From a virus, in the IMG/VR virus record IMGVR_UViG_3300050821_002963, positions 1 through 64,000 of that record: 64,000 nucleotides of DNA. The stretch is one strand, 5' to 3'. Under the pieces are notes generated by a model that was given only the letters and a program-made list of their open reading frames with translations, searched no databases and had not been told where the DNA came from. Position numbers and translations under genes: made by a program. This document shows, one piece after another, positions 24,777 through 36,601 of this stretch; within the stretch, counting starts at the first letter, position 1; each line of letters begins with the position of its first letter.

Positions 24777-25346
24777 GTGGCTAGCAAAGTCGTGAATGTA
24801 CAACTCACGCACAGGAAAGCTTGTCTCCTTGGTGGGCCTGAAGTTTGGAAAGTAATTCCAAGTTTCCCACGTTATAAGGCGTCAAGCTTTGGCCGGGTCA
24901 AAGGCAAGAAAGTAATTTTGAGCCAGGTCATGTGTGGAAAGTATTTGGCAGTTCATGTTTACGATGGCGAGAAGAAGATTAAGCGTGTACATATTTTGGT
25001 CGCGGAAGCTTTCCATGGACCTTGCCCGCCAGGTAAAGAAGTGAATCACAAAGATACTGATAAGCTGAATAATCGCTCGGGAAATCTTGAATACCTAACG
25101 AGAAAGAAGAACATGGAGCATGCAGTAAAGAATGGGCTTACAGCAAAAGGAGAAAGGCACGGGAATTCCAAGTTAACAGAGGCAGATGTGAAAGAGATAA
25201 AGAGAAAGTTTGGACCGTGGTTTATTCCAAGAAAGAAGTTACCAGTTCCTATTCAGCAAGAGCTTAGAAGTATGGCTAGAAATCGTGGAGTAGCAATAGA
25301 TTCAATCCATGCTATTCTACGTGGGCAGCTTTGGAAGCACGTATGA
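24777..25346 (+). mobile_element. NUMOD4-HNH homing endonuclease fused to a remnant of the helicase N-terminus
   Basis: VWK.IP...Y.ASS.GRV, VHILVAEAF, EVNHKDTDKLNNRSGNLEY; N-terminus duplicates LTHRKA.LL of the downstream helicase. Confidence 0.9.
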
Positions 25347-26884
25347 GAACGATACGAGTTTCGTTAACACACAGAAAAGCAGAATTGCTAAGTTCGTATC
25401 CGTCAGAGTTAAATGACATTTTGAAATATCGCAAAGTTGGCTGGGACTGGACACCATCGGGGAAAGCCTACATCCACAATAAAGCAGCAGGGATTGTGGA
25501 CCCAGTTACGGGTGAGATTCCCGGATGGGACGGGTACATTCACCTGATGCGTGATGGTGAAATGGGTGCCGGAGTCTTTCTAGCAAAGAAAGACGAGATT
25601 GAGAAAACCCTCAGCGTCAAATTCAAAATAAAAGACCAGCGGTTACCCCTTGCTTTCGGACCGGAAGAAGTCACCGACTTGGATAAGGAAGGACGTATCT
25701 ACCAGTTGGAGTGTGTGGAAGCAATGGTCAACGCTTCCATGACGGGTGGGTTGGTCCTCCAAGCGACGGGTTCGGGGAAGACGTACACAACAGGGAAGTT
25801 CTTTCGTCGCTTAAAGGGTAATGCCCTATTCCTAGTCGATGAACTTACCCTGCTCAAGCAGGCACAGGACGAGCTAGGAAGCGTTCTGGGGGAAGATATA
25901 GGGGTCATTGGTAACTCAATATTCGACCCCAAGCGGATAACAGTTGGGACCATCCAAACCGTGCACCTGCACAGAAGAGACAAGTCCTATTCCAGTTGGA
26001 CCAAGAGTTTGAAAGTTATCATTATAGATGAGGTGCATTTAGCGCTGAATCGGAGAAACTTCCAAACGGTTCGCAGTATCAACCCACCAGCAATTTTCGG
26101 ACTAACAGCCACATTGGAGTTGAAGAAGAAGCATATCGCTATGCAGGCGTACGACCTGTGCGGTCCGGTTATCTATCAGTACCCTTTGAGTCAGGGAGTA
26201 GAAGAAGGTTACCTGAGTAGGGGAGTTGCGGTGCAGGTCCTCTGCGATTCGGGGAAACCTGCTCCAGTACGGAGGGGAAATAAAAGGTTCTGGTTCCTGA
26301 ACAGAATGTTGGGGAGGAAGGATTACCAGAAAGAGTATAGGGAGTACATCGTTGAGAGTGAGAAGAGGAATGAATTAATCCTCAGTTTGGTACAAGCGTG
26401 CCACAGTCGGGGGAAGTACATCATTATTCTGGTGGAGAGGGTTAAGCATTTGGAAACCTTGAGTGCGATGTTCGATGGGATTCCACACCTGTTACTCTAT
26501 GGAGACAAGTCGGTAGAGGAAAGAGTAGAGGGGAAAGACCTGTTTGAGAAGGGTAAGGTAAGGGTCATCCTGACCAACAAGATATTCAAAAAGGGAGTCA
26601 ACATTAAACGTGTAGACGTTATCCTGGACGGAGCTGCGATGAAGTCAAAGAATGACGCAGCGCAGAAATACGGACGGGGAGTTAGGTTGTCAGATGAGAA
26701 GTTGGGATTGATTTACCTGGACATTGGGGACGTTGGGAACAGATTTGAGAAAGCTGCAAAGAGTAGAATCAGCGCAATCAAAAAACTGGGAGTTCCGATA
26801 TATAAGGTGGACCCCCAGATTGGAATTCTCAAAATTCTGGATTTAGCTGAGAAGAAACTGAAAGTAGAAGTTGAGAAAAGTTAG
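25343..26884 (+). CDS. Superfamily 2 helicase (UvsW / ResIII-like)
   Basis: ATGSGKT, DEVH, GLTAT and QKYGRGVR motifs. Confidence 0.92.
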   Translation: MRTIRVSLTHRKAELLSSYPSELNDILKYRKVGWDWTPSGKAYIHNKAAGIVDPVTGEIPGWDGYIHLMRDGEMGAGVFLAKKDEIEKTLSVKFKIKDQRLPLAFGPEEVTDLDKEGRIYQLECVEAMVNASMTGGLVLQATGSGKTYTTGKFFRRLKGNALFLVDELTLLKQAQDELGSVLGEDIGVIGNSIFDPKRITVGTIQTVHLHRRDKSYSSWTKSLKVIIIDEVHLALNRRNFQTVRSINPPAIFGLTATLELKKKHIAMQAYDLCGPVIYQYPLSQGVEEGYLSRGVAVQVLCDSGKPAPVRRGNKRFWFLNRMLGRKDYQKEYREYIVESEKRNELILSLVQACHSRGKYIIILVERVKHLETLSAMFDGIPHLLLYGDKSVEERVEGKDLFEKGKVRVILTNKIFKKGVNIKRVDVILDGAAMKSKNDAAQKYGRGVRLSDEKLGLIYLDIGDVGNRFEKAAKSRISAIKKLGVPIYKVDPQIGILKILDLAEKKLKVEVEKS

Positions 26885-30745: not shown

Positions 30746-30821
30746 GCAAGCACGAAGGGTAGTCTCAGCACGAAGATAGAGTCGGAACAAGAACGACGAC
30801 AGACGGTTCGGGGGAAAGTGA

Positions 30822-32198
30822 ATGTCTGAAGAAACATTCTTGTCTGATGCGCATTTTGTGGATGAGCTGATAAAACGCCTAATTCATGATCGCCAATTCT
30901 TGGAGACGGCTTCTCATTTACTTTCAGCGGAAGATTTCTCGAAACTGGATGCACACGAAGGCAATGAAAGAAAAGTAGTGGCTGGTATGGCTCTGGATTT
31001 CTGGAACAGATACAGAGAACCATTGGGGCCGATGCTAAGGGCGGAATGTCTACAATGGTCTCAGAGGTCTGGGGGTTCGGCAGCGAACAAGGCCAGGTTC
31101 TTGGAATATGCAGATACACTGAAGATGAATGGCCACAAGCCTGCACCAGCCGAGGCGGTGCTGGAGAAAGTAAAGCAGTACAAGATAGACAAGGAAATCA
31201 CCAAAGCTATGCTACAGATGCAATCGGGTCTGGAGAAAGGGCTGATGACGCCGGACTTATTCATGGCGGCGGCGAGAAATGTGGTAGACGCGGTTGGTAA
31301 GGACTTTGGTCGGCCAAAGAATATTTTTTCCGATAAAGAACTGGAATTGAGAATAGCGCGGCGGCAGCTACAGATGCAAAGGGATAGGTTCCCGGTACTT
31401 CTCATTGACCCTATCGACAGGATGATTAGGATTATCTCCAGACGACACTTGGGACTGATACTGGCTCCATATAAGAGGGGGAAGACAACTCTCTTCGTTT
31501 GGTTGGGACTAGCCTATGCTTTGCAGGGACTTAACGTACTACACTTCACATTGGAAGACCCAAGAGAGGATATAGAAGACAGATACGATTCAGCTATCAC
31601 TGCCCTGCCTACGACCAGACTGGCTCAGGTACCTGAAAAGGTGCGGGCACGGTTCAAGCTCTATAAAAGGTTGATTCGGTCCAAGGTAAAGGTGGTCGAT
31701 GGGACGAACGGGGACACGACTATCGGTACGGTAGAGAATACTTGGGAGAGGGAAAGAAACAACGGATTCACAGCAGATGTGGTATTGATAGACTACGACG
31801 ACGAAATCCGGCCCATGAAGAAGAGAGATGAAAGGAGAATGGAGTTTGCGGACATCTATCGGGACTACAGATCGTTTCTTGGAAGGAACCAATTAATCGG
31901 TTGGGTAGCTTCCCAGACGACTAGACGGTCGGAAGATATGAAAATCATCTCCGGTAAGGAAATCGCGGAAGATATCTCAAAGATAAGAAAAGCTTCTTTC
32001 GCGATGAGCATGGGCAAGGGAGAGTGGGGAGATAACTCGGTCTTCCTTTGGGTGGCTGCACACAGATACGATAAGCAGTATGTCGGGGCTCACGTTATCA
32101 CGGACTACGACCGGGGCATATTCTACGACAGAGACGAGACTTTGAAAAGGGAGAAAATAGAACGTGCGAAAGCAACAGCGGCAGCAACGAAACCCTAA
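30822..32198 (+). CDS. DnaB-like replicative helicase
   Basis: Walker A APYKRGKT, FTLE, VLIDYDD, ASQTTR motifs. Confidence 0.88.
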   Translation: MSEETFLSDAHFVDELIKRLIHDRQFLETASHLLSAEDFSKLDAHEGNERKVVAGMALDFWNRYREPLGPMLRAECLQWSQRSGGSAANKARFLEYADTLKMNGHKPAPAEAVLEKVKQYKIDKEITKAMLQMQSGLEKGLMTPDLFMAAARNVVDAVGKDFGRPKNIFSDKELELRIARRQLQMQRDRFPVLLIDPIDRMIRIISRRHLGLILAPYKRGKTTLFVWLGLAYALQGLNVLHFTLEDPREDIEDRYDSAITALPTTRLAQVPEKVRARFKLYKRLIRSKVKVVDGTNGDTTIGTVENTWERERNNGFTADVVLIDYDDEIRPMKKRDERRMEFADIYRDYRSFLGRNQLIGWVASQTTRRSEDMKIISGKEIAEDISKIRKASFAMSMGKGEWGDNSVFLWVAAHRYDKQYVGAHVITDYDRGIFYDRDETLKREKIERAKATAAATKP

Positions 32199-32745
32199 AA
32201 TCGGTTACCATCATACGTCTTGGGAATGTTGGAAGCAGATACAGAAGGCTGGGGCTATCCTTCCTTATCGGCACATGAGACACGAACAGGAATTGGTAGA
32301 CTCTGGATTCAAGCCACCAGTTCTGGGGGTTTGGATTTGGACTGAGCCTATGGATTTGGCTTCGGAATACGCCAACGTGTTTTGGCACGTGTGTACTAAA
32401 AGGACGAAGAGAGTCGTGATACTACAGGTCGAGTGGTACGAGAGTGAGAGGTTGCTGACAGGGGATGGGAGAAACTATGTTTCCCTCTATCACAGAATCA
32501 CGTGGGACAATGTGGTGGAGTTTCACGAGAACTCGATAGCGACCATCCTCGGTAGTCCGATACCACTGGCTGGAATAAAACTACTAAGGGAGTACGACTT
32601 TTCAGATCATGTGAGGATAGTCCATGACTTTAATCGTTCCTACGGCGTACAGGCGCCTTTACTACCGGGAAAGGAAACAGAACATTTGCCTGAGGTGTTT
32701 CAAGCCAGCCACAGTCGGCTTGAGATGCGACAAGTGCAGGGCTGA
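32164..32745 (+). CDS. Hypothetical protein
   Basis: ORF only. Confidence 0.4.
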   Translation: MRKQQRQQRNPKIGYHHTSWECWKQIQKAGAILPYRHMRHEQELVDSGFKPPVLGVWIWTEPMDLASEYANVFWHVCTKRTKRVVILQVEWYESERLLTGDGRNYVSLYHRITWDNVVEFHENSIATILGSPIPLAGIKLLREYDFSDHVRIVHDFNRSYGVQAPLLPGKETEHLPEVFQASHSRLEMRQVQG

Positions 32746-33108
32746 AAGAAAACAACAGAACGTTGGGAGGAAGAGATGAGAGTAAAAGTAGGAACTCATA
32801 CGGTGACTGGTGGAGATATATGGGGTAGAGCAGCAGGCATCTTGGAAATGTTGAGAAACCGCGGTGATAAAATACTAGCTGTGGTATGTTGCGAGATGAC
32901 GCTGGTGATTTATCACGAGTATGAGGAGAAGTAGATGAACAACGATTACGCAGAAGATGCGGAAGAGATACTGGACACTGCTATCCAGAAGGTGCCAGAG
33001 GATGCCACGGAAGTGGACATCCATGTTACGTGGAAGACTCTGGAGAGCGATAACCTAGAATCGGAGTACGTGCCGGATGTAACGGTGAAATGGAAGAGGG
33101 GAGTATGA
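32624..33108 (+). other. Three short ORFs below the track cutoff: 32624-32779 (CxxC..CxxC zinc finger), 32776-32934, 32935-33108
   Basis: Read by hand; coupled starts and stops, RBSs. Confidence 0.5.
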
Positions 33109-33109
33109 G

Positions 33110-33226
33110 GTGTTTGACTTCTTCGATATCCTCTCCCAGCACGGGATTGAGGTAAAGGAAAGTTACGGCTCGGAAGACGAGTTCAGAATCAATTGTCTGT
33201 TCTGCACGGACATGGGAGTTAGTTAG
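33110..33226 (+). pseudogene. Orphaned 5' fragment of the primase gene (38 aa)
   Basis: MFDFFDILSQHGIEVKESYGSEDEFRINCLFCTDMGVS*; 22 of 36 residues identical to the primase N-terminus at 33702. Confidence 0.9.
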
Positions 33227-33709
33227 ATGAAAGAAAAGTGGAGGCCAGTTTGCGGGGGAAAGTATCAGATATCTGACTCGGGAAGATTTCGTAATGCTAG
33301 AACAATGCAGCTACTGAAAATTGGTCATGGAGCTACAGGCGGTTATGCGACAGTTGTGTTTTATGATGAACAGGCTCGTCAAGTTACAAAAAGAGTACAT
33401 CGTTTGGTAGCAGCAGCCTTTCTCGGTCCTTGTCCAGTTGGTATGGAAGTGAATCACAAGGATACGAATAAAAGAAACAATTGTTTGGACAACTTAGAGT
33501 ACGTGACCTCGAAAAGGAATCATGCACACGCTAGGAGTAGAGGATTGTGGTCCTCTTGTAGAAATCGCTATTATCTTACTCCAGAATTGGTTTTGAGAAT
33601 TAGAAAGGAAGCAGCAACAAGGACTTGTGCTGACGTTGGAAAAGAATTTGGCCTAGCCCCTCAGACAGTTTCGAATATTAGAAACTACAGAGTTTGGAAA
33701 AATGTTTAA
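33227..33709 (+). mobile_element. NUMOD4-HNH homing endonuclease
   Basis: EKWRPV..YQISDSGR, VHRLVAAAF, EVNHKDTNKRNNCLDNLEY; C-terminal HTH. Confidence 0.92.
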
Positions 33710-34652
33710 CTTTTTTGAGCTGCTAAGCCAGAAGGGCATAGACATTAGGGAGAATGCCTCTAGCCAGGATGAGTATCGTATATGCTGTTTATTTTGTGTT
33801 GATATGGGCTACACACCTGATTTTAAGTTCAGACTTGGGTTCAACGTTCAATCTGGATTGGGGCATTGTTTTAACTGCGGTTGGTCTTCTAGAAAAGTAA
33901 TCATAGAGATTCTGAAAAAGCTGGGAGAAGGATACCAGGAAGTAACGACGGAGAACTACACCAAGCAGACTAGGAAAAGACCGGAGCCAGTTAAGTTACC
34001 AGAAGGATTTGAGCTATTAGCAGACACGGATGAAGACGACCCAATGTTCGGGGAAGCAAGGCGGTATGTGGCAAAGAGGGGAATTACCGAGAATCAGCTG
34101 AAAAAACACCTAATAGGAGCGACGGTAGCCGACTATCGTTACAAGAACAGTATCATCTTCCCCGTACCAATGGCGGATGGGAAGCTGGCTGGTATCGTGT
34201 CGAGAGACTACACGGGAAAGCGGGACCCAAAGTATTTGAACTCCATTGGTACGAAAGTAATCTATAACGTGTTTGGGGACTACTCGGAAGTGGCTGTGAT
34301 TCTCTCGGAAGGGATTACGAAGGCACTGGCCATAGAGAGGGCGGTAGGAGAGGGCATATGCTCTGGTGCGACTCTTGGCCACTCCATAACGGACACGCAG
34401 ATAGAAGGGTTGAAGAAATTCCGGGAAGTAATCCTTTTTCCAGACCCAGACTACGCCGGGCTGGTTGGGTTTATTGGCGTGGCGGCGAATCTGAGACCAG
34501 TGGTGAGGAAAGTAACAATGGCGTGGCCATGGCCACAGAGACAGGCAGACGACTTATCGGTAAAAGAAATCAGAGAGCACCTGAGAAATAGAAAAGAGTT
34601 TACCCCAGCGGTGCAGTTGCGGTTGAAGATGGAGTTGAGAGGTAGGGGATGA
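33702..34652 (+). CDS. DNA primase (Zn finger + TOPRIM)
   Basis: CLFC...HCFNC, PKYLNS, ILSEG, FPDPD.AG motifs. Confidence 0.9.
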   Translation: MFNFFELLSQKGIDIRENASSQDEYRICCLFCVDMGYTPDFKFRLGFNVQSGLGHCFNCGWSSRKVIIEILKKLGEGYQEVTTENYTKQTRKRPEPVKLPEGFELLADTDEDDPMFGEARRYVAKRGITENQLKKHLIGATVADYRYKNSIIFPVPMADGKLAGIVSRDYTGKRDPKYLNSIGTKVIYNVFGDYSEVAVILSEGITKALAIERAVGEGICSGATLGHSITDTQIEGLKKFREVILFPDPDYAGLVGFIGVAANLRPVVRKVTMAWPWPQRQADDLSVKEIREHLRNRKEFTPAVQLRLKMELRGRG

Positions 34653-34813
34653 GTCAGAGTAAATGTTGGCAATGTCATCGGGAAGTTTCGACAACGTGCG
34701 ATTGTTGCGACAAGGCACTTTGTGATTACTGCTACGACCAAGGACAGGGCAAGTGCGACTACTGTGTAGAGAACTGTGACCAGAGGCACAACGATTGCAG
34801 GACGAAAGAATAA
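34649..34813 (+). CDS. Cys-rich zinc-finger microprotein (54 aa, 11 Cys)
   Basis: MSQSKCWQCHREVSTTCDCCDKALCDYCYDQGQGKCDYC...; ATGA overlap with primase. Confidence 0.55.
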   Translation: MSQSKCWQCHREVSTTCDCCDKALCDYCYDQGQGKCDYCVENCDQRHNDCRTKE

Positions 34814-34815
34814 AA

Positions 34816-35706
34816 ATGGCGGAAGTAATCCTAGTGGACGGGAAAATGATGGGCTTCCGGGCTCACTATTCTCATCTGGCTCTAAGAACGAGGCAGGGAG
34901 AATCTTCTGGGATGCTGCACGGGTTTCTGGTGGAGTTGATGCAGATAAACAAGACCAAGCCAGAAGCCAAGATTGTGGTCTGCTGGGACGGACCGGGGAA
35001 GAATTGGCGGCATGGGGCGTTTCCAGCGTACAAGGCGAACAGAACCCATAACGCGGAATACAAGAATCTCATCTCCCAGTCGGAAATTCTTTTACACGCT
35101 TTGCAAGATTTGGGATTGAAGGTGGCGGTCGTTGCGGGTGTGGAAGCGGACGATATGTTGGGGGTGCTTTCCACTAGGCTTTCGGAAAAGAATGACGTGC
35201 TGGTGTACTCATCGGATAGGGATATGTACCAGTTAGCTGGGCCACGAGTAAAGGTGTGGCCTGGATACAAAAGTAATCCGATGGGTACTCAGGAGATAGA
35301 AAAGTGGTTGGGGGCTCCGTTCAGCTCGCTCATGGAAATCAGGGCCATGGCTGGTGATGCTGGTGATAACCTGAAGGGTTTACCGCGAGTTGGGTACAAG
35401 ACGGCGGTAAAATTGTGGAAAGGGGGTACGACGCTCAAGTCCTCTTCGCATGGCTTCGCACAAGAGGACTGGAACAGAATGCTAAAGGAACACAAATTGG
35501 CGTTAATAATCAGGGACGAGAATGCTCCATGCTGGACAGACGTGCAACGATTAAAACTCGGACAGTTGGTGCACGCGATTGTGAGACAGCCGGGTCGAGA
35601 TATGGTTTTGGCAGAGGAAAGGAAGCGGAAATTCTACGAGTTTCTGGGACGTTATGAACTCGAAGAAATCTTTCGCTCCCGAGCGAAACTTTATGCCATT
35701 CCATAA
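34816..35706 (+). CDS. 5'-3' exonuclease / flap endonuclease
   Basis: LVDG, WRH...YKANR, EADD, SSDRD..QL, GDAGDNLKGLPRVG.KTA motifs. Confidence 0.93.
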   Translation: MAEVILVDGKMMGFRAHYSHLALRTRQGESSGMLHGFLVELMQINKTKPEAKIVVCWDGPGKNWRHGAFPAYKANRTHNAEYKNLISQSEILLHALQDLGLKVAVVAGVEADDMLGVLSTRLSEKNDVLVYSSDRDMYQLAGPRVKVWPGYKSNPMGTQEIEKWLGAPFSSLMEIRAMAGDAGDNLKGLPRVGYKTAVKLWKGGTTLKSSSHGFAQEDWNRMLKEHKLALIIRDENAPCWTDVQRLKLGQLVHAIVRQPGRDMVLAEERKRKFYEFLGRYELEEIFRSRAKLYAIP

Positions 35707-35735
35707 TTGACATTAGATAAATGACATACTAAAAT
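35707..35735 (+). promoter_or_regulatory. Sigma70-type promoter
   Basis: TTGACA-N17-TAAAAT. Confidence 0.75.
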
Positions 35736-35786
35736 CGGGCTACGTTGTTTCTCTCAAACAAATCAAATTACGGGAGTCGCGTCTCT

Positions 35787-36341
35787 ATGAGAAAGACAAA
35801 AGAGCAAAGGACGGTTGAATTGGTCGGGCAGTACCGGGGCCTGGCCATGAAGCTTGCGTGGGACTATTGGAAGCGGTTACCAGCAGCCACGAAGATGTGG
35901 GTGGACCCGGATGACCTGATAGCAGAGGCCATCTGTCATATCGTGACGTTCGTGTTGAACGATTACGATAAGAAGCGGGCGAGCCTGAGTACATTTATGT
36001 ATTGCAGTACGAATGGACATCTCATGAACTTCGCGTTGGCCCAGACCGCGGCCAAGAGATATGGATTCCGGGCGGACTTGGAAGACGCGTGGGGAGTGGG
36101 AGTCAAGGAGTCAAAATTCCAGTTGGTGGATGCCCTGAATGCTTTCGAGGCGGTTTACGGTCAGGCTTCGGAAGGATTGCAGGACGAGATTTGTCAATGG
36201 TTTGGCGTGGATAGAAAAGCCCCGAGACGGTCTGCGGAAGGGAAAGAGTTGATTCGGGAGTTCGGTCATCTGGCTTACCAGAACAGACTCTCTGAATCGG
36301 ATTGTCGGCTCTTATTGCGGAGCGGAGTATGGGTTCCATAG
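35787..36341 (+). CDS. Phage sigma-factor-like protein (region 2)
   Basis: YRGLAMKLA...DDLIAEA...YDKKRASLSTF resembles sigma70 region 2. Confidence 0.7.
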   Translation: MRKTKEQRTVELVGQYRGLAMKLAWDYWKRLPAATKMWVDPDDLIAEAICHIVTFVLNDYDKKRASLSTFMYCSTNGHLMNFALAQTAAKRYGFRADLEDAWGVGVKESKFQLVDALNAFEAVYGQASEGLQDEICQWFGVDRKAPRRSAEGKELIREFGHLAYQNRLSESDCRLLLRSGVWVP

Positions 36342-36601
36342 AAGACAAGCAGCTGCTGTGGTGTCTCCTTTGTAGCAACCGGTTCACGGTCCGGGACGCA
36401 GAGGAGGGAAGATATCGGGGAGGGACCGGTATCTGCATGGAGTGCTATACCAGCATGGCGAAAAGTACAAAGACTTGTTTCGGGAAACAATCAGGCGAAG
36501 GCTTGGCGGGGTATGACGAGTCAGCGGAGGAGTGCCTCCGGTTCTGTCCGGACCGGAAAGTCTGTAAAGAGTTCGTCACCATTCAAAAAAGGCTCGGTTA
36601 G
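36329..36601 (+). CDS. Cys-rich small protein
   Basis: CxxC..CxxC..CFG..YD...EC...C.....C. Confidence 0.55.
   Translation: MGSIEDKQLLWCLLCSNRFTVRDAEEGRYRGGTGICMECYTSMAKSTKTCFGKQSGEGLAGYDESAEECLRFCPDRKVCKEFVTIQKRLG

What the first reader, a model, noticed from the sequence alone, without database searches (positions are those of the whole stretch)
33110..33809. Intron-free HNH cassette that replaces the 5' end of the primase gene with a recoded copy
Seen: a 38-codon primase stub (33110-33226, missed by the ORF track), then an HNH gene starting on the next base, then a complete primase whose ATG overlaps the HNH 3' end. Stub and new N-terminus match at 22 of 36 residues. Of the 21 identical residues after the start, 16 use different codons, including two Ser TCN/AGC swaps, Arg AGA/CGT and Leu CTG/TTA. 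The stub favours C-ending codons and the new start favours T/A-ending ones, like the HNH. Inference: the mobile unit is HNH plus a replacement 5' end. It could invade an essential gene without splicing, with recoding removing the cut site and preventing deletion by recombination. Known analogues are fungal mitochondrial endonucleases that carry duplicate gene ends, and intronless homing in T4-like phages.
Basis: partly seen in the sequence, partly recalled or inferred. Interest (0 to 1): 0.85.

Follow-up and report, generated by a model that had tools for sequence, protein, structure and literature searches.

The report
Endonuclease cassette replacing primase gene start
A selfish DNA-cutting-enzyme gene sits 37 codons into a soil phage's DNA primase gene and keeps the gene working without splicing, because a differently spelled copy of the gene's beginning lies right behind it while the original beginning is left as a short stub.

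Summary
A 38-codon primase stub (33110-33226) is followed on the next base by an I-HmuI-like HNH gene (33227-33709). The HNH gene's 3' end overlaps the ATG of a complete 316-aa primase (33702-34652).

Stub and new start share 21 of 36 residues (22 counting the initiator), and 16 of the 21 use other codons. The longest exact DNA match between them is 5 nt.

- **Stub is native.** It groups with the closest uninterrupted primase P0002 (support 99/92), as the primase body does (99). It matches P0002 at 28 of 36 residues, against 21 of 36 for the new start.
- **New start is probably imported.** The HNH gene and the first ~240 nt of the primase form one low-GC block (0.40-0.42, genome 0.49).
- **Relatives lack the arrangement.** None of 39 related primase loci has the HNH or a second primase start.
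- **No intron** model matches.

A second HNH paralogue at 24777-25346 shows the same layout on a helicase gene.

Limits:
- The "recoding" is no more than ordinary divergence between distant orthologues.
- No donor was found.
- Likelihood tests do not exclude a common origin of both starts.
- Cleavage is untested.

It is the mirror image of yeast WHO elements and fungal mitochondrial endonuclease ORFs. This scan has noted the same design before on other DNA (26 notes, at least 23 genomes).

The parts
33093..33103 (+). Shine-Dalgarno-like purine run (GGAG at 33100-33103) 6 nt before the stub's GTG; native translation start signals of the primase gene
   Evidence: Read directly. The stop of the upstream 57-aa ORF (33106-33108) lies 1 nt before the GTG. 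That it functions as a ribosome-binding site is inference.
33110..33226 (+). Native primase 5' stub: GTG start, codons 1-37 of the original gene, one further codon and TAG. It holds only the first Cys pair of the zinc ribbon.
   Evidence: Matches P0002 at 28 of 36 residues. Sister to P0002 with support 99/92. GC 0.47.
33221..33226 (+). Upstream junction: the last codon that matches the uninterrupted allele is 37 (GTT, 33218-33220). The next codon (AGT) and the stop TAG are of unknown origin. TAG abuts the HNH ATG, a stop-start arrangement.
   Evidence: sequence. P0002 reads DMGVEPD where the stub reads DMGVS-stop. GGGAG at 33214-33218 lies 8 nt before the HNH ATG. Translational coupling is inferred.
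33227..33709 (+). Free-standing HNH homing endonuclease gene (160 aa), NUMOD4 plus HNH_3, I-HmuI-like
   Evidence: Pfam. PHROG 59, E 1.4e-44. PDB 1U3E 'HNH homing endonuclease', E 2.6e-10, aligned over residues 5-110. GC 0.421, the 2nd percentile of 240-nt genome windows.
33702..33812 (+). Replacement copy of primase codons 1-37, the part that duplicates the stub. ATG overlaps the HNH 3' end by 8 nt.
   Evidence: 58 of 105 nt identical to the stub over codons 2-36; longest exact match 5 nt. GC 0.405.
33813..33950 (+). Probable rest of the imported tract (codons 38 to about 83, second half of the zinc ribbon and linker); its right-hand border is approximate
   Evidence: GC is 0.413 here and 0.404 for 33702-33941 (0.3rd percentile), against 0.492 for the next 240 nt. 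P0002's excess identity over 33 other relatives is small up to about residue 96 and large from residue 97 on. The border is inferred, not mapped.
33951..34652 (+). Native body of the primase gene (RNA-polymerase core and Toprim)
   Evidence: Residues 96-316 are sister to P0002 with SH-aLRT 99 and 68% identity. GC 0.49-0.51. All 36 invariant columns of the 35-sequence alignment are present.
24777..25346 (+). Second instance: an ORF whose first ~20 codons are a helicase N-terminus stub, fused in frame to an HNH_3 paralogue that has no start codon of its own
   Evidence: The HNH profiles begin at residue 21-22 of the ORF. The first ~20 residues fit the N-terminal motif of the helicase family. HNH body GC 0.429.
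25343..26884 (+). Second instance: complete helicase whose ATG overlaps the HNH stop (ATGA) and whose first residues repeat the stub with other codons
   Evidence: Flank score 44, above the 95th percentile (39) and below the 99th percentile (55) of the null. PHROG 16 DNA helicase.

Best explanation
This is an end-replacement homing cassette. The unit is an I-HmuI-type HNH endonuclease gene plus the 5' part of a primase gene that lies directly behind it.

**Proposed events.**
1. In a mixed infection the enzyme cuts or nicks the primase gene of a phage without the cassette, near codons 30-40.
2. The break is repaired from the cassette-bearing genome.
3. The repair copies in the HNH gene and about 83 codons of the donor's primase start, up to a crossover near 33950.
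4. The recipient's own first 37 codons are pushed upstream and stay as a stub.

**Consequences.**
- The primase is made from the new ATG, so no splicing is needed.
- The two copies share at most 5 nt in a row, so they cannot recombine to delete the insert.
- The new start no longer carries the native target sequence.
- The stub keeps the gene's original start signals and ends in TAG directly before the HNH ATG. The HNH stop in turn overlaps the primase ATG. Ribosomes are probably handed from stub to HNH to primase.
- In later rounds the stub would serve as the upstream homology arm, as the displaced FBA1 fragment does in yeast WHO elements.

**Shown:** the anatomy; native kinship of stub and gene body; the shared odd composition of HNH and new start; absence of the arrangement in relatives; a second instance.
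**Inferred:** the cut site, the repair route, translational coupling, immunity, and mobility as a unit.
For: - **Anatomy and significance of the duplication:**
- **Enzyme identity:** HNH_3 and NUMOD4 above Pfam cut-offs. Alignment to the solved I-HmuI chain 1U3E, E 2.6e-10, conserved across the HNH block.
- **Stub is native:** 28 of 36 residues shared with P0002, against a mean of 16.2 of 35 for 33 other relatives. Sister to P0002, 99/92. This is the same sister relation as primase residues 96-316 (99).
- **New start behaves differently:** 21 of 36 to P0002. Its end branch is 0.51, against 0.15 for the body. It is placed away from P0002 without support. Where the copies differ, P0002 sides with the stub 8 times and with the new start once (one-sided sign test p 0.02).
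- **Composition:** HNH 0.421, first 240 nt of primase 0.404 (0.3rd percentile of genome windows), next 240 nt 0.492, stub 0.47.
- **Relatives:** 0 of 39 loci with a primase match show the HNH or a second primase start.
- **No intron:** no group I or II intron model at E up to 1 in 32600-34300.
- **Second instance** on a helicase gene.
- **Not an assembler quirk:** a Logan contig of 76,079 nt carries 30800-36400 with 0 differences, though run X1 may be the sample of origin. Run X2, from another sample code, holds two 151-nt pieces inside the HNH gene with 0 differences.
- **Precedents for the mechanism:** WHO elements (PMC7282813, abstract and section 10 read); fungal mitochondrial endonuclease ORFs with a foreign gene end (PMC3630166, passages read).
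Against: - AU tests on the N-terminal 98 columns do not reject a clade of new start plus stub (p 0.30), new start plus P0002 (p 0.35) or all three (p 0.46; only 1.03 log-likelihood units worse). Foreign origin of the new start therefore rests mainly on composition and branch length.
- P0002 is still nominally the best match of residues 2-95 (0.596, against a maximum of 0.585 among the others).
- No donor lineage and no second copy of the unit was found. The best match to residues 1-95 is 60% identical. The closest HNH relatives in viral contigs and isolated phages are 34-38% identical.
- Six other HNH_3 loci (4 isolated phages, 2 viral contigs) and the third HNH gene of this genome show no flank duplication (scores 25-36).
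- The second instance scores only 44, between the 95th and 99th percentile of the null, and shows no composition break in the helicase start.
- The synonymous divergence is not above that of ordinary orthologues.
- There are no cleavage, RNA or population data. The three runs showed no HNH-free variant and no joints.
Confidence: 0.6

Rival explanations
1. One-off repair scar, not a standing mobile unit. An ordinary intergenic free-standing HNH gene lay upstream of the primase gene of a diverged donor and cut the recipient's primase gene. The break was repaired with homology on the downstream side only and an illegitimate join on the upstream side. This left the stub by accident. The stub has no role and the arrangement does not move on as a unit.
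For: - The review PMC2988022 (passages read) reports one-sided homing with illegitimate double-strand-break repair at microhomologies for phage T4, citing Parker et al. 1999. I could not read that paper.
- The third HNH gene of this genome sits between two genes with no duplication, as do 6 of 6 other HNH_3 loci examined. The usual state of this family is therefore intergenic.
- No second copy of the unit was found anywhere.
Against: - In both instances in this genome the upstream junction falls exactly at the first or second codon of the HNH gene, and no donor intergenic DNA came along. That is unexpected for two independent random joins. It is expected if the junction is inherited with the element.
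- Both arrangements keep translation continuous: stop-start in one, an in-frame fusion in the other.
Confidence: 0.2
2. Local tandem duplication of the primase 5' end within this lineage, later insertion of an HNH gene between the copies, and divergence in place.
For: AU tests do not reject stub and new start as each other's closest relatives (p 0.30) or a clade of both with P0002 (p 0.46).
Against: - Synonymous sites between the copies are as diverged as between orthologues at about 50% protein identity (nt identity 0.55 against 0.53-0.58). Yet the unused stub is still an open frame and is closer to P0002 (28 of 36) than the copy in use (21 of 36). Drift in place predicts the opposite.
- The copy in use and about 140 nt beyond the duplicated part share the HNH gene's low GC. 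A local duplication does not explain that.
Confidence: 0.08
3. The stub is a real first exon or first coding segment. The HNH gene lies in an intron, or in a stretch that ribosomes bypass, so the stub is joined to the primase body.
For: HNH genes of this family often lie in group I introns of phage replication genes (I-HmuI; recalled). The T4 MobA element uses a translational bypass (bioRxiv 10.1101/2022.08.31.505936, passages read).
Against: - No intron family matched at E up to 1. The only hit is an unrelated sRNA model at 21.4 bits against a gathering score of 50.
- The downstream ORF is complete from its own ATG and keeps all 36 invariant columns of the family, including all four zinc-ribbon cysteines.
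- A joined product would need the duplicated 37 codons to be removed.
Confidence: 0.03
4. Assembly artefact: two strains of the phage were merged, which created a false duplication.
For: The record is a metagenome assembly. None of the short contigs of runs X2 and X3 bridges either junction.
Against: - The two copies share no exact match longer than 5 nt, so a k-mer assembler has nothing to mis-join.
- A second assembly (Logan contig, 76,079 nt, depth 14.9) has the identical 5.6 kb, although probably from the same sample.
- All three reading frames are intact and tightly coupled.
Confidence: 0.03

Closest known systems
WHO elements of Torulaspora and Lachancea yeasts (Coughlan et al. 2020, eLife, PMC7282813; abstract and section 10 read)
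   Same: - An endonuclease gene sits beside a full-length essential gene and homes by replacing one end of that gene with a cleavage-resistant version it carries.
- The displaced old end stays on the other side of the endonuclease gene and is proposed to act as the homology arm.
- The target gene becomes a chimera whose two parts give discordant trees.
- No splicing is involved.
   Different: - WHO replaces the 3' end of FBA1; here the 5' end of a primase gene is replaced (mirror image).
- The WHO protein is an intein-derived LAGLIDADG-zinc-finger protein in a eukaryotic nucleus. Here the enzyme is an I-HmuI-like HNH enzyme in a phage.
- WHO loci hold arrays of old ends. Here there is one stub and no older relics.
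- WHO cleavage is shown by experiment. Here nothing is.
Mobile endonuclease ORFs (mORFs) of fungal mitochondria that make gene hybrids: Allomyces macrogynus atp6; Glomus sp. atp6, atp9, cox2, nad3 (Beaudet et al. 2013, PMC3630166; passages read)
   Same: - A foreign gene end plus an endonuclease ORF is inserted, and the native end is left as a duplicate.
- The native end is closer to the close relative than the inserted end is. In Glomus the native ends are 91-98% identical in nucleotides to the relative, the inserted ends 64-81%.
   Different: - There the C-terminal end is replaced and the endonuclease ORF lies downstream, often in frame with the gene. The enzymes are LAGLIDADG or GIY-YIG.
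- Here the N-terminal end is replaced, the enzyme is an HNH, and the stub lies upstream with the original start signals.
MobA element of T4-like phages: mobA plus the gene 60 bypass cassette in the topoisomerase gene (Manning and Atkins 2022, bioRxiv 10.1101/2022.08.31.505936; passages read)
   Same: A phage HNH homing endonuclease inserts inside an essential replication gene, deletes 55-75 nt of the target and brings a homologous replacement region that contains its own nick site.
   Different: MobA splits the gene into two proteins, adds extensions to both and needs a 50-nt ribosomal bypass. Here the gene is restored as one complete ORF from a new start, and the old part is discarded as a stub.
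Intronless homing by free-standing T4 endonucleases (Seg, Mob) with co-conversion of flanking markers, and one-sided illegitimate repair (review Edgell et al. 2010, PMC2988022; passages read)
   Same: A free-standing endonuclease gene lies next to the gene it targets. Spread is by double-strand-break repair with co-conversion of neighbouring sequence. Homology on one side only can give illegitimate junctions.
   Different: In the passages I read, the T4 cases are intergenic insertions or gene splits. None is described as a duplicated, displaced gene end.
I-HmuI, HNH homing endonuclease (PDB 1U3E)
   Same: Sequence match E 2.6e-10 over residues 5-110, covering the N-terminal beta domain and the HNH block.
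   Different: I-HmuI is intron-encoded in the phage SPO1 DNA polymerase gene and nicks one strand (both recalled, not from a call). The gene here is free-standing, 160 aa against 174, and its C-terminal part did not align.

Membership tests
HNH homing endonuclease, I-HmuI type (Pfam HNH_3 with NUMOD4) | HNH_3 catalytic domain above the curated cut-off | tested here: met
   57.5 bits against a cut-off of 24.8, residues 55-99. The same holds in all 3 paralogues of the genome.
HNH homing endonuclease, I-HmuI type (Pfam HNH_3 with NUMOD4) | N-terminal NUMOD4 DNA-binding module | tested here: met
   27.8 bits against a cut-off of 23.4, residues 3-44.
HNH homing endonuclease, I-HmuI type (Pfam HNH_3 with NUMOD4) | Conserved HNH-block residues as in a solved member | tested here: met
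   Alignment to 1U3E keeps the H-K-D, N-N and N-L positions of the block. Which of these are catalytic is recalled, not tested.
HNH homing endonuclease, I-HmuI type (Pfam HNH_3 with NUMOD4) | Site-specific cleavage or nicking of the allele that lacks the gene | not testable with these tools
   Needs purified protein and native-type and resident-type substrates.
HNH homing endonuclease, I-HmuI type (Pfam HNH_3 with NUMOD4) | Sporadic presence among related genomes | tested here: met
   0 of 39 loci with a primase match carry it. Its closest relatives elsewhere are 34-38% identical.
End-replacement homing element (yeast WHO, fungal mitochondrial mORF type) | Endonuclease gene flanked by a full-length target gene on one side and a displaced fragment of the same gene end on the other | tested here: met
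End-replacement homing element (yeast WHO, fungal mitochondrial mORF type) | The displaced fragment is the native end, closest to HNH-free relatives | tested here: met
   Stub and P0002 are sisters, 99/92. 28 of 36 identical. Protein level only; no DNA of P0002 could be fetched.
End-replacement homing element (yeast WHO, fungal mitochondrial mORF type) | The end in use is foreign, so the target gene is a chimera with discordant histories | tested here: inconclusive
   For: the composition break near 33950, the long N-terminal end branch and a different placement in the tree. Against: AU p 0.30-0.46 for the alternatives, and no donor found.
End-replacement homing element (yeast WHO, fungal mitochondrial mORF type) | Allele-specific cleavage: native end sensitive, carried end resistant | not testable with these tools
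   Only the sequence difference is seen: the longest shared run is 5 nt.
End-replacement homing element (yeast WHO, fungal mitochondrial mORF type) | The unit recurs in other genomes, or the same design recurs at other genes | tested here: inconclusive
   A second instance on a helicase gene lies in the same genome. No copy of the primase unit was found elsewhere. Earlier notes of this scan report the design in other genomes; I did not check them.
Intron-encoded homing endonuclease (group I or II intron) | A ribozyme fold around the endonuclease ORF, with exons that join to make the product | tested here: not met
   No intron family at E up to 1. The downstream ORF is complete on its own.
MobA-type split-gene cassette | Target gene split into two expressed polypeptides, with a bypass cassette | tested here: not met
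   The primase is one ORF of 316 aa aligned end to end with 34 relatives. The stub holds 37 codons that the new ORF repeats.
DnaG-type phage primase (the target gene) | Zinc ribbon, DNAG_N core and Toprim | tested here: met
   DNAG_N 32 bits against a cut-off of 26. Toprim 20.6 bits, below its 23.1 cut-off. PHROG 47 DNA primase, E 3.7e-42. Four cysteines and the Toprim acidic residues are among the invariant columns.

The most novel reading that the evidence does not exclude
I-HmuI-type HNH genes of phages form true end-replacement homing elements, a phage counterpart of yeast WHO elements that works on the 5' end of essential replication genes. In this reading the stub is a working part of the element, not debris. 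It is the upstream homology arm for the next round of homing. It is also a translational launch pad, by stop-start coupling at the primase or in-frame fusion at the helicase, through which the endonuclease takes over the target gene's own promoter and ribosome-binding site. If this is general, it would account for many orphan mini-ORFs upstream of phage endonuclease genes. It would also give a route by which essential phage genes become chimeras without introns or inteins.
Probability: 0.35. Interest if true: 0.75.

Novelty: new variant of a known kind. Interest (0 to 1): 0.58.

Why it matters
Free-standing homing endonucleases are thought to be confined to gaps between genes unless an intron or intein shields the host gene. 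This locus shows a third way in a phage: land inside an essential gene and bring a spare, uncuttable gene start.

If confirmed, it would:
- explain how essential replication genes of phages become mosaics at sub-gene scale;
- warn annotators that short ORFs in front of endonuclease genes can be displaced gene starts;
- warn that the 5' part of such a gene can distort phylogenies;
- give a simple system for testing target-site immunity and the need for the stub.

The principle is already known from yeast WHO elements, fungal mitochondrial endonuclease ORFs and, in part, the T4 MobA element. The gain is a new host, a new polarity and a new enzyme family, not a new principle. This scan has also noted the design on other DNA.

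Tried and rejected
- **DNA of close relatives.** blastn of 32700-34700 against 50,697 phage records found no match. tblastn of the primase there gave only matches under 25% identity.
- **Look-up of P0002's contig.** P0002 used as a query on viral contigs gave one locus at 37%. The one metagenome scan returned 31 loci, the best at 52%, and not P0002's contig.
- **Donor search.** Residues 1-95 of the primase against 5.8 billion proteins gave a best match of 60% identity. The HNH protein on viral contigs gave 2 loci at 34-35%. On isolated phages it gave 395 records, all under 60%; the 25 best rows listed are 34.9-38.3%.
- **Other primase stubs.** A profile of the first 62 residues against proteins of 20-109 aa gave 6 hits. 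None ends at the DMG site. One 59-aa protein on a 20.8-kb contig ends inside the zinc ribbon and may be a stub elsewhere. Its context could not be fetched.
- **Sequencing runs.** 3 runs were listed and no RNA holder was listed. Laid on 30800-36400, they showed no other letters, no joints and no HNH-free variant. X2 and X3 hold only short identical pieces, none bridging a junction.
- **Older relics.** No further primase-start-like or HNH-like piece lies in 32160-33109 or elsewhere in the record.
- **Promoter and terminator scan** of 32000-35000: nothing on the + strand.
- **HNH_3 in related viral records.** 4 records were searched and only the record of L012 has any. Metagenome loci were not searchable.
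- **Literature.** 8 completed full-text searches found no paper that describes a phage homing endonuclease with a displaced, duplicated 5' gene end. Barth et al. 2023 (PMC10448857; passages by term) and the Skunavirus HNH paper (PMC12724721; passages) do not mention one. This is not proof of absence. Subscription journals are mostly not held, and supplements were closed and not consulted.
- **Rejected ideas.** An intron, special recoding beyond ordinary divergence and an assembly artefact.
Full report
**What is there.** The window is the first 64 kb of a 131,524-base virus record, estimated 82% complete, from soil metagenome data. At 30.8-36.3 kb lies a co-directional replication module: DnaB-like helicase, four small ORFs, the locus in question, a 54-aa Cys-rich ORF, a 5'-3' exonuclease and a 198-aa ORF.

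The locus reads as follows:
- GTG 33110 opens a 38-codon ORF that stops at TAG 33224-33226.
- ATG 33227 opens a 160-aa ORF that stops at TAA 33707-33709.
- ATG 33702 opens a 316-aa ORF that ends at 34652.

The middle ORF is an HNH homing endonuclease. HNH_3 scores 57.5 bits and NUMOD4 27.8 bits, both above their cut-offs. It matches PHROG 59 and the solved I-HmuI chain 1U3E at E 2.6e-10. The last ORF is a DnaG-type primase. It aligns end to end with 34 relatives and keeps all 36 invariant columns, including the four zinc-ribbon cysteines.

**The duplication is real.** Of 36 residues, 21 are identical (22 with the initiator), and 16 of the 21 use other codons, with the named Ser, Arg and Leu swaps. 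In the whole record the stub matches only itself and 33702-33815 (E 5e-13). The flank-to-flank score of 129 compares with a null mean of 30 and a 99th percentile of 55. The longest exact nucleotide match between the copies is 5 nt.

**Which copy is native.**
- The closest primase in 5.8 billion proteins, P0002 (66% identical, 316 aa, uninterrupted, first letter V), begins almost like the stub and reads straight on where the stub breaks off after DMGV.
- Over codons 2-37 the stub shares 28 of 36 residues with P0002 and the new start 21 of 36. The 33 other relatives average 16.2 of 35 with either copy.
- At the 15 positions where the copies differ, P0002 sides with the stub 8 times, with the new start once and with neither 6 times (one-sided p 0.02).
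- In a careful maximum-likelihood tree of the N-terminal 98 columns, stub and P0002 are sisters (99/92). The new start sits elsewhere on a long branch (0.51) without support.
- Residues 96-316 are sister to P0002 (SH-aLRT 99) on a short branch (0.15).

So the stub and the gene body share one history. The new start does not clearly share it.

**Where the imported block ends.**
- GC is 0.421 in the HNH gene.
- It is 0.404 in the first 240 nt of the primase, lower than 99.7% of 240-nt windows of the record.
- It is 0.492 in the next 240 nt, against a genome value of 0.49.
- The stub has 0.47.
- P0002's excess identity over the other relatives is 0.07 for residues 2-95 and 0.17 for residues 96-316. 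It becomes strong from about residue 97.

I therefore place the right-hand border near 33950, about codon 83. This border is approximate and inferred. On this reading the insert is HNH plus about 83 primase codons. Only the first 37 are duplicated, because native codons 38 to about 83 were replaced.

**Results against this reading.**
- AU tests do not reject new start plus stub (p 0.30), new start plus P0002 (p 0.35) or all three together (p 0.46).
- P0002 is still nominally the best match of residues 2-95.
- No donor was found. The best match to residues 1-95 is 60% identical.
- The synonymous divergence is not special. Seven orthologous primase genes at 47-52% protein identity differ in codon at 57-65% of identical residues and are 0.53-0.58 identical in nucleotides. 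The two copies here show 76% (16 of 21, p 0.13) and 0.55. "Recoded" therefore means "from a distant relative".

**Relatives, splicing, artefact.**
- Of 39 fetched loci with a primase match (8 from viral contigs, 31 from metagenome contigs; 3 of them only short zinc-finger matches), none has a match to this HNH. In each, the stub query matches only the primase's own start.
- No intron family matches 32600-34300 at E up to 1.
- A separately assembled 76-kb contig carries the same 5.6 kb with no difference, though probably from the sample of origin. A second sample holds identical pieces of the HNH gene. No HNH-free variant was seen.

**A second instance.** The record has three HNH_3 genes and no GIY-YIG or PF01844 gene.
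- *Paralogue at 24777-25346.* It has no start codon of its own. The HNH profiles begin at residue 21-22. The first ~20 residues fit the N-terminal motif of the helicase family encoded just downstream, as the N-termini of 25 homologues show. The helicase's ATG overlaps the HNH stop, and its first residues repeat the stub with other codons. The flank score is only 44 (95th percentile 39, 99th 55). The instance rests on position and family motif rather than on score.
- *Paralogue at 90890-91393.* It lies between a methyltransferase gene and a sugar dehydratase gene with no duplication (score 30).
- *Elsewhere.* Six HNH_3 loci in other genomes show none either.

**Mechanism.** The best fit is an end-replacement homing cassette, the mirror image of yeast WHO elements (PMC7282813, section 10) and of fungal mitochondrial endonuclease ORFs that bring a foreign C-terminus (PMC3630166).

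The enzyme would cut the native primase 5' region near the stub's end. Repair from a cassette-bearing genome would copy in the HNH gene and the donor's gene start, and push the native start upstream.

Both junctions in this genome fall exactly at the start of the HNH gene. This favours a junction inherited with the element, with the stub as upstream homology arm, over two independent illegitimate joins. The one-off scar model has a T4 precedent, one-sided homing, cited in PMC2988022. It remains a live rival.

The purine-rich run before the stub's GTG, the GGGAG 8 nt before the HNH ATG, the TAG-ATG abutment and the 8-nt overlap at the primase ATG suggest a relay of translational coupling. This is inference.

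**Comparison and novelty.** The principle is published for yeast nuclei and fungal mitochondria. In phages the MobA element carries a replacement of its target segment, but it splits the gene and needs a bypass (bioRxiv 10.1101/2022.08.31.505936). Eight full-text searches found no description of a phage endonuclease with a displaced 5' gene stub (listed under Tried and rejected).

This scan's own notes report the same design in at least 23 other genomes. Those notes are unchecked by me. I take them as a sign that the design is common, not as evidence for this locus.

I class the finding as a new variant of a known kind, of moderate to good interest. The anatomy is solid. The mechanism is plausible and testable but rests on one genome and protein-level comparisons.

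Noticed in passing
window 24777-25440: Second stub-HNH-new-start arrangement, on a helicase gene. The HNH paralogue lacks its own start codon and is fused in frame to about 20 codons of helicase N-terminus. The helicase restarts at an ATGA overlap. Another note of this scan covers it as a finding of its own.
   Followed up: partly
G000 90890-91393 (L002 1501-2004): Third HNH_3 paralogue, GC 0.407. It starts on an ATGA overlap with an upstream methyltransferase-like ORF and lies before a GDP-mannose-dehydratase-like ORF. No flank duplication (score 30).
   Followed up: partly
protein P0232, from another contig of 20,789 bases: A 59-aa protein that is a primase N-terminus ending inside the zinc ribbon, on a long contig. 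It may be a displaced primase stub at a different site in another phage. Its context could not be fetched.
   Followed up: no
window 34649-34813: A 54-aa ORF with 12 cysteines, starting on an ATGA overlap with the primase stop. No Pfam match. It looks like a small zinc-binding protein inside the replication module.
   Followed up: no
window 32164-33108, and loci L019, L020, L016: The spacer between helicase and primase genes varies among relatives, from adjacent genes in L020 to about 2.2 kb in L019 and over 3.7 kb in L016. Here it holds four small ORFs with no Pfam match (one tested) or Pfam/PHROG match (three tested).
   Followed up: no
proteins P0080, P0096, P0101, P0104, P0128, P0182, P0205: Homologues of the 513-aa helicase that are 823-853 aa long and match in two stretches, the best of which starts at their residues 453-579 (those of P0096, P0104 and P0182 at 566-579). 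They may carry an insert such as an intein, or an extra domain.
   Followed up: no
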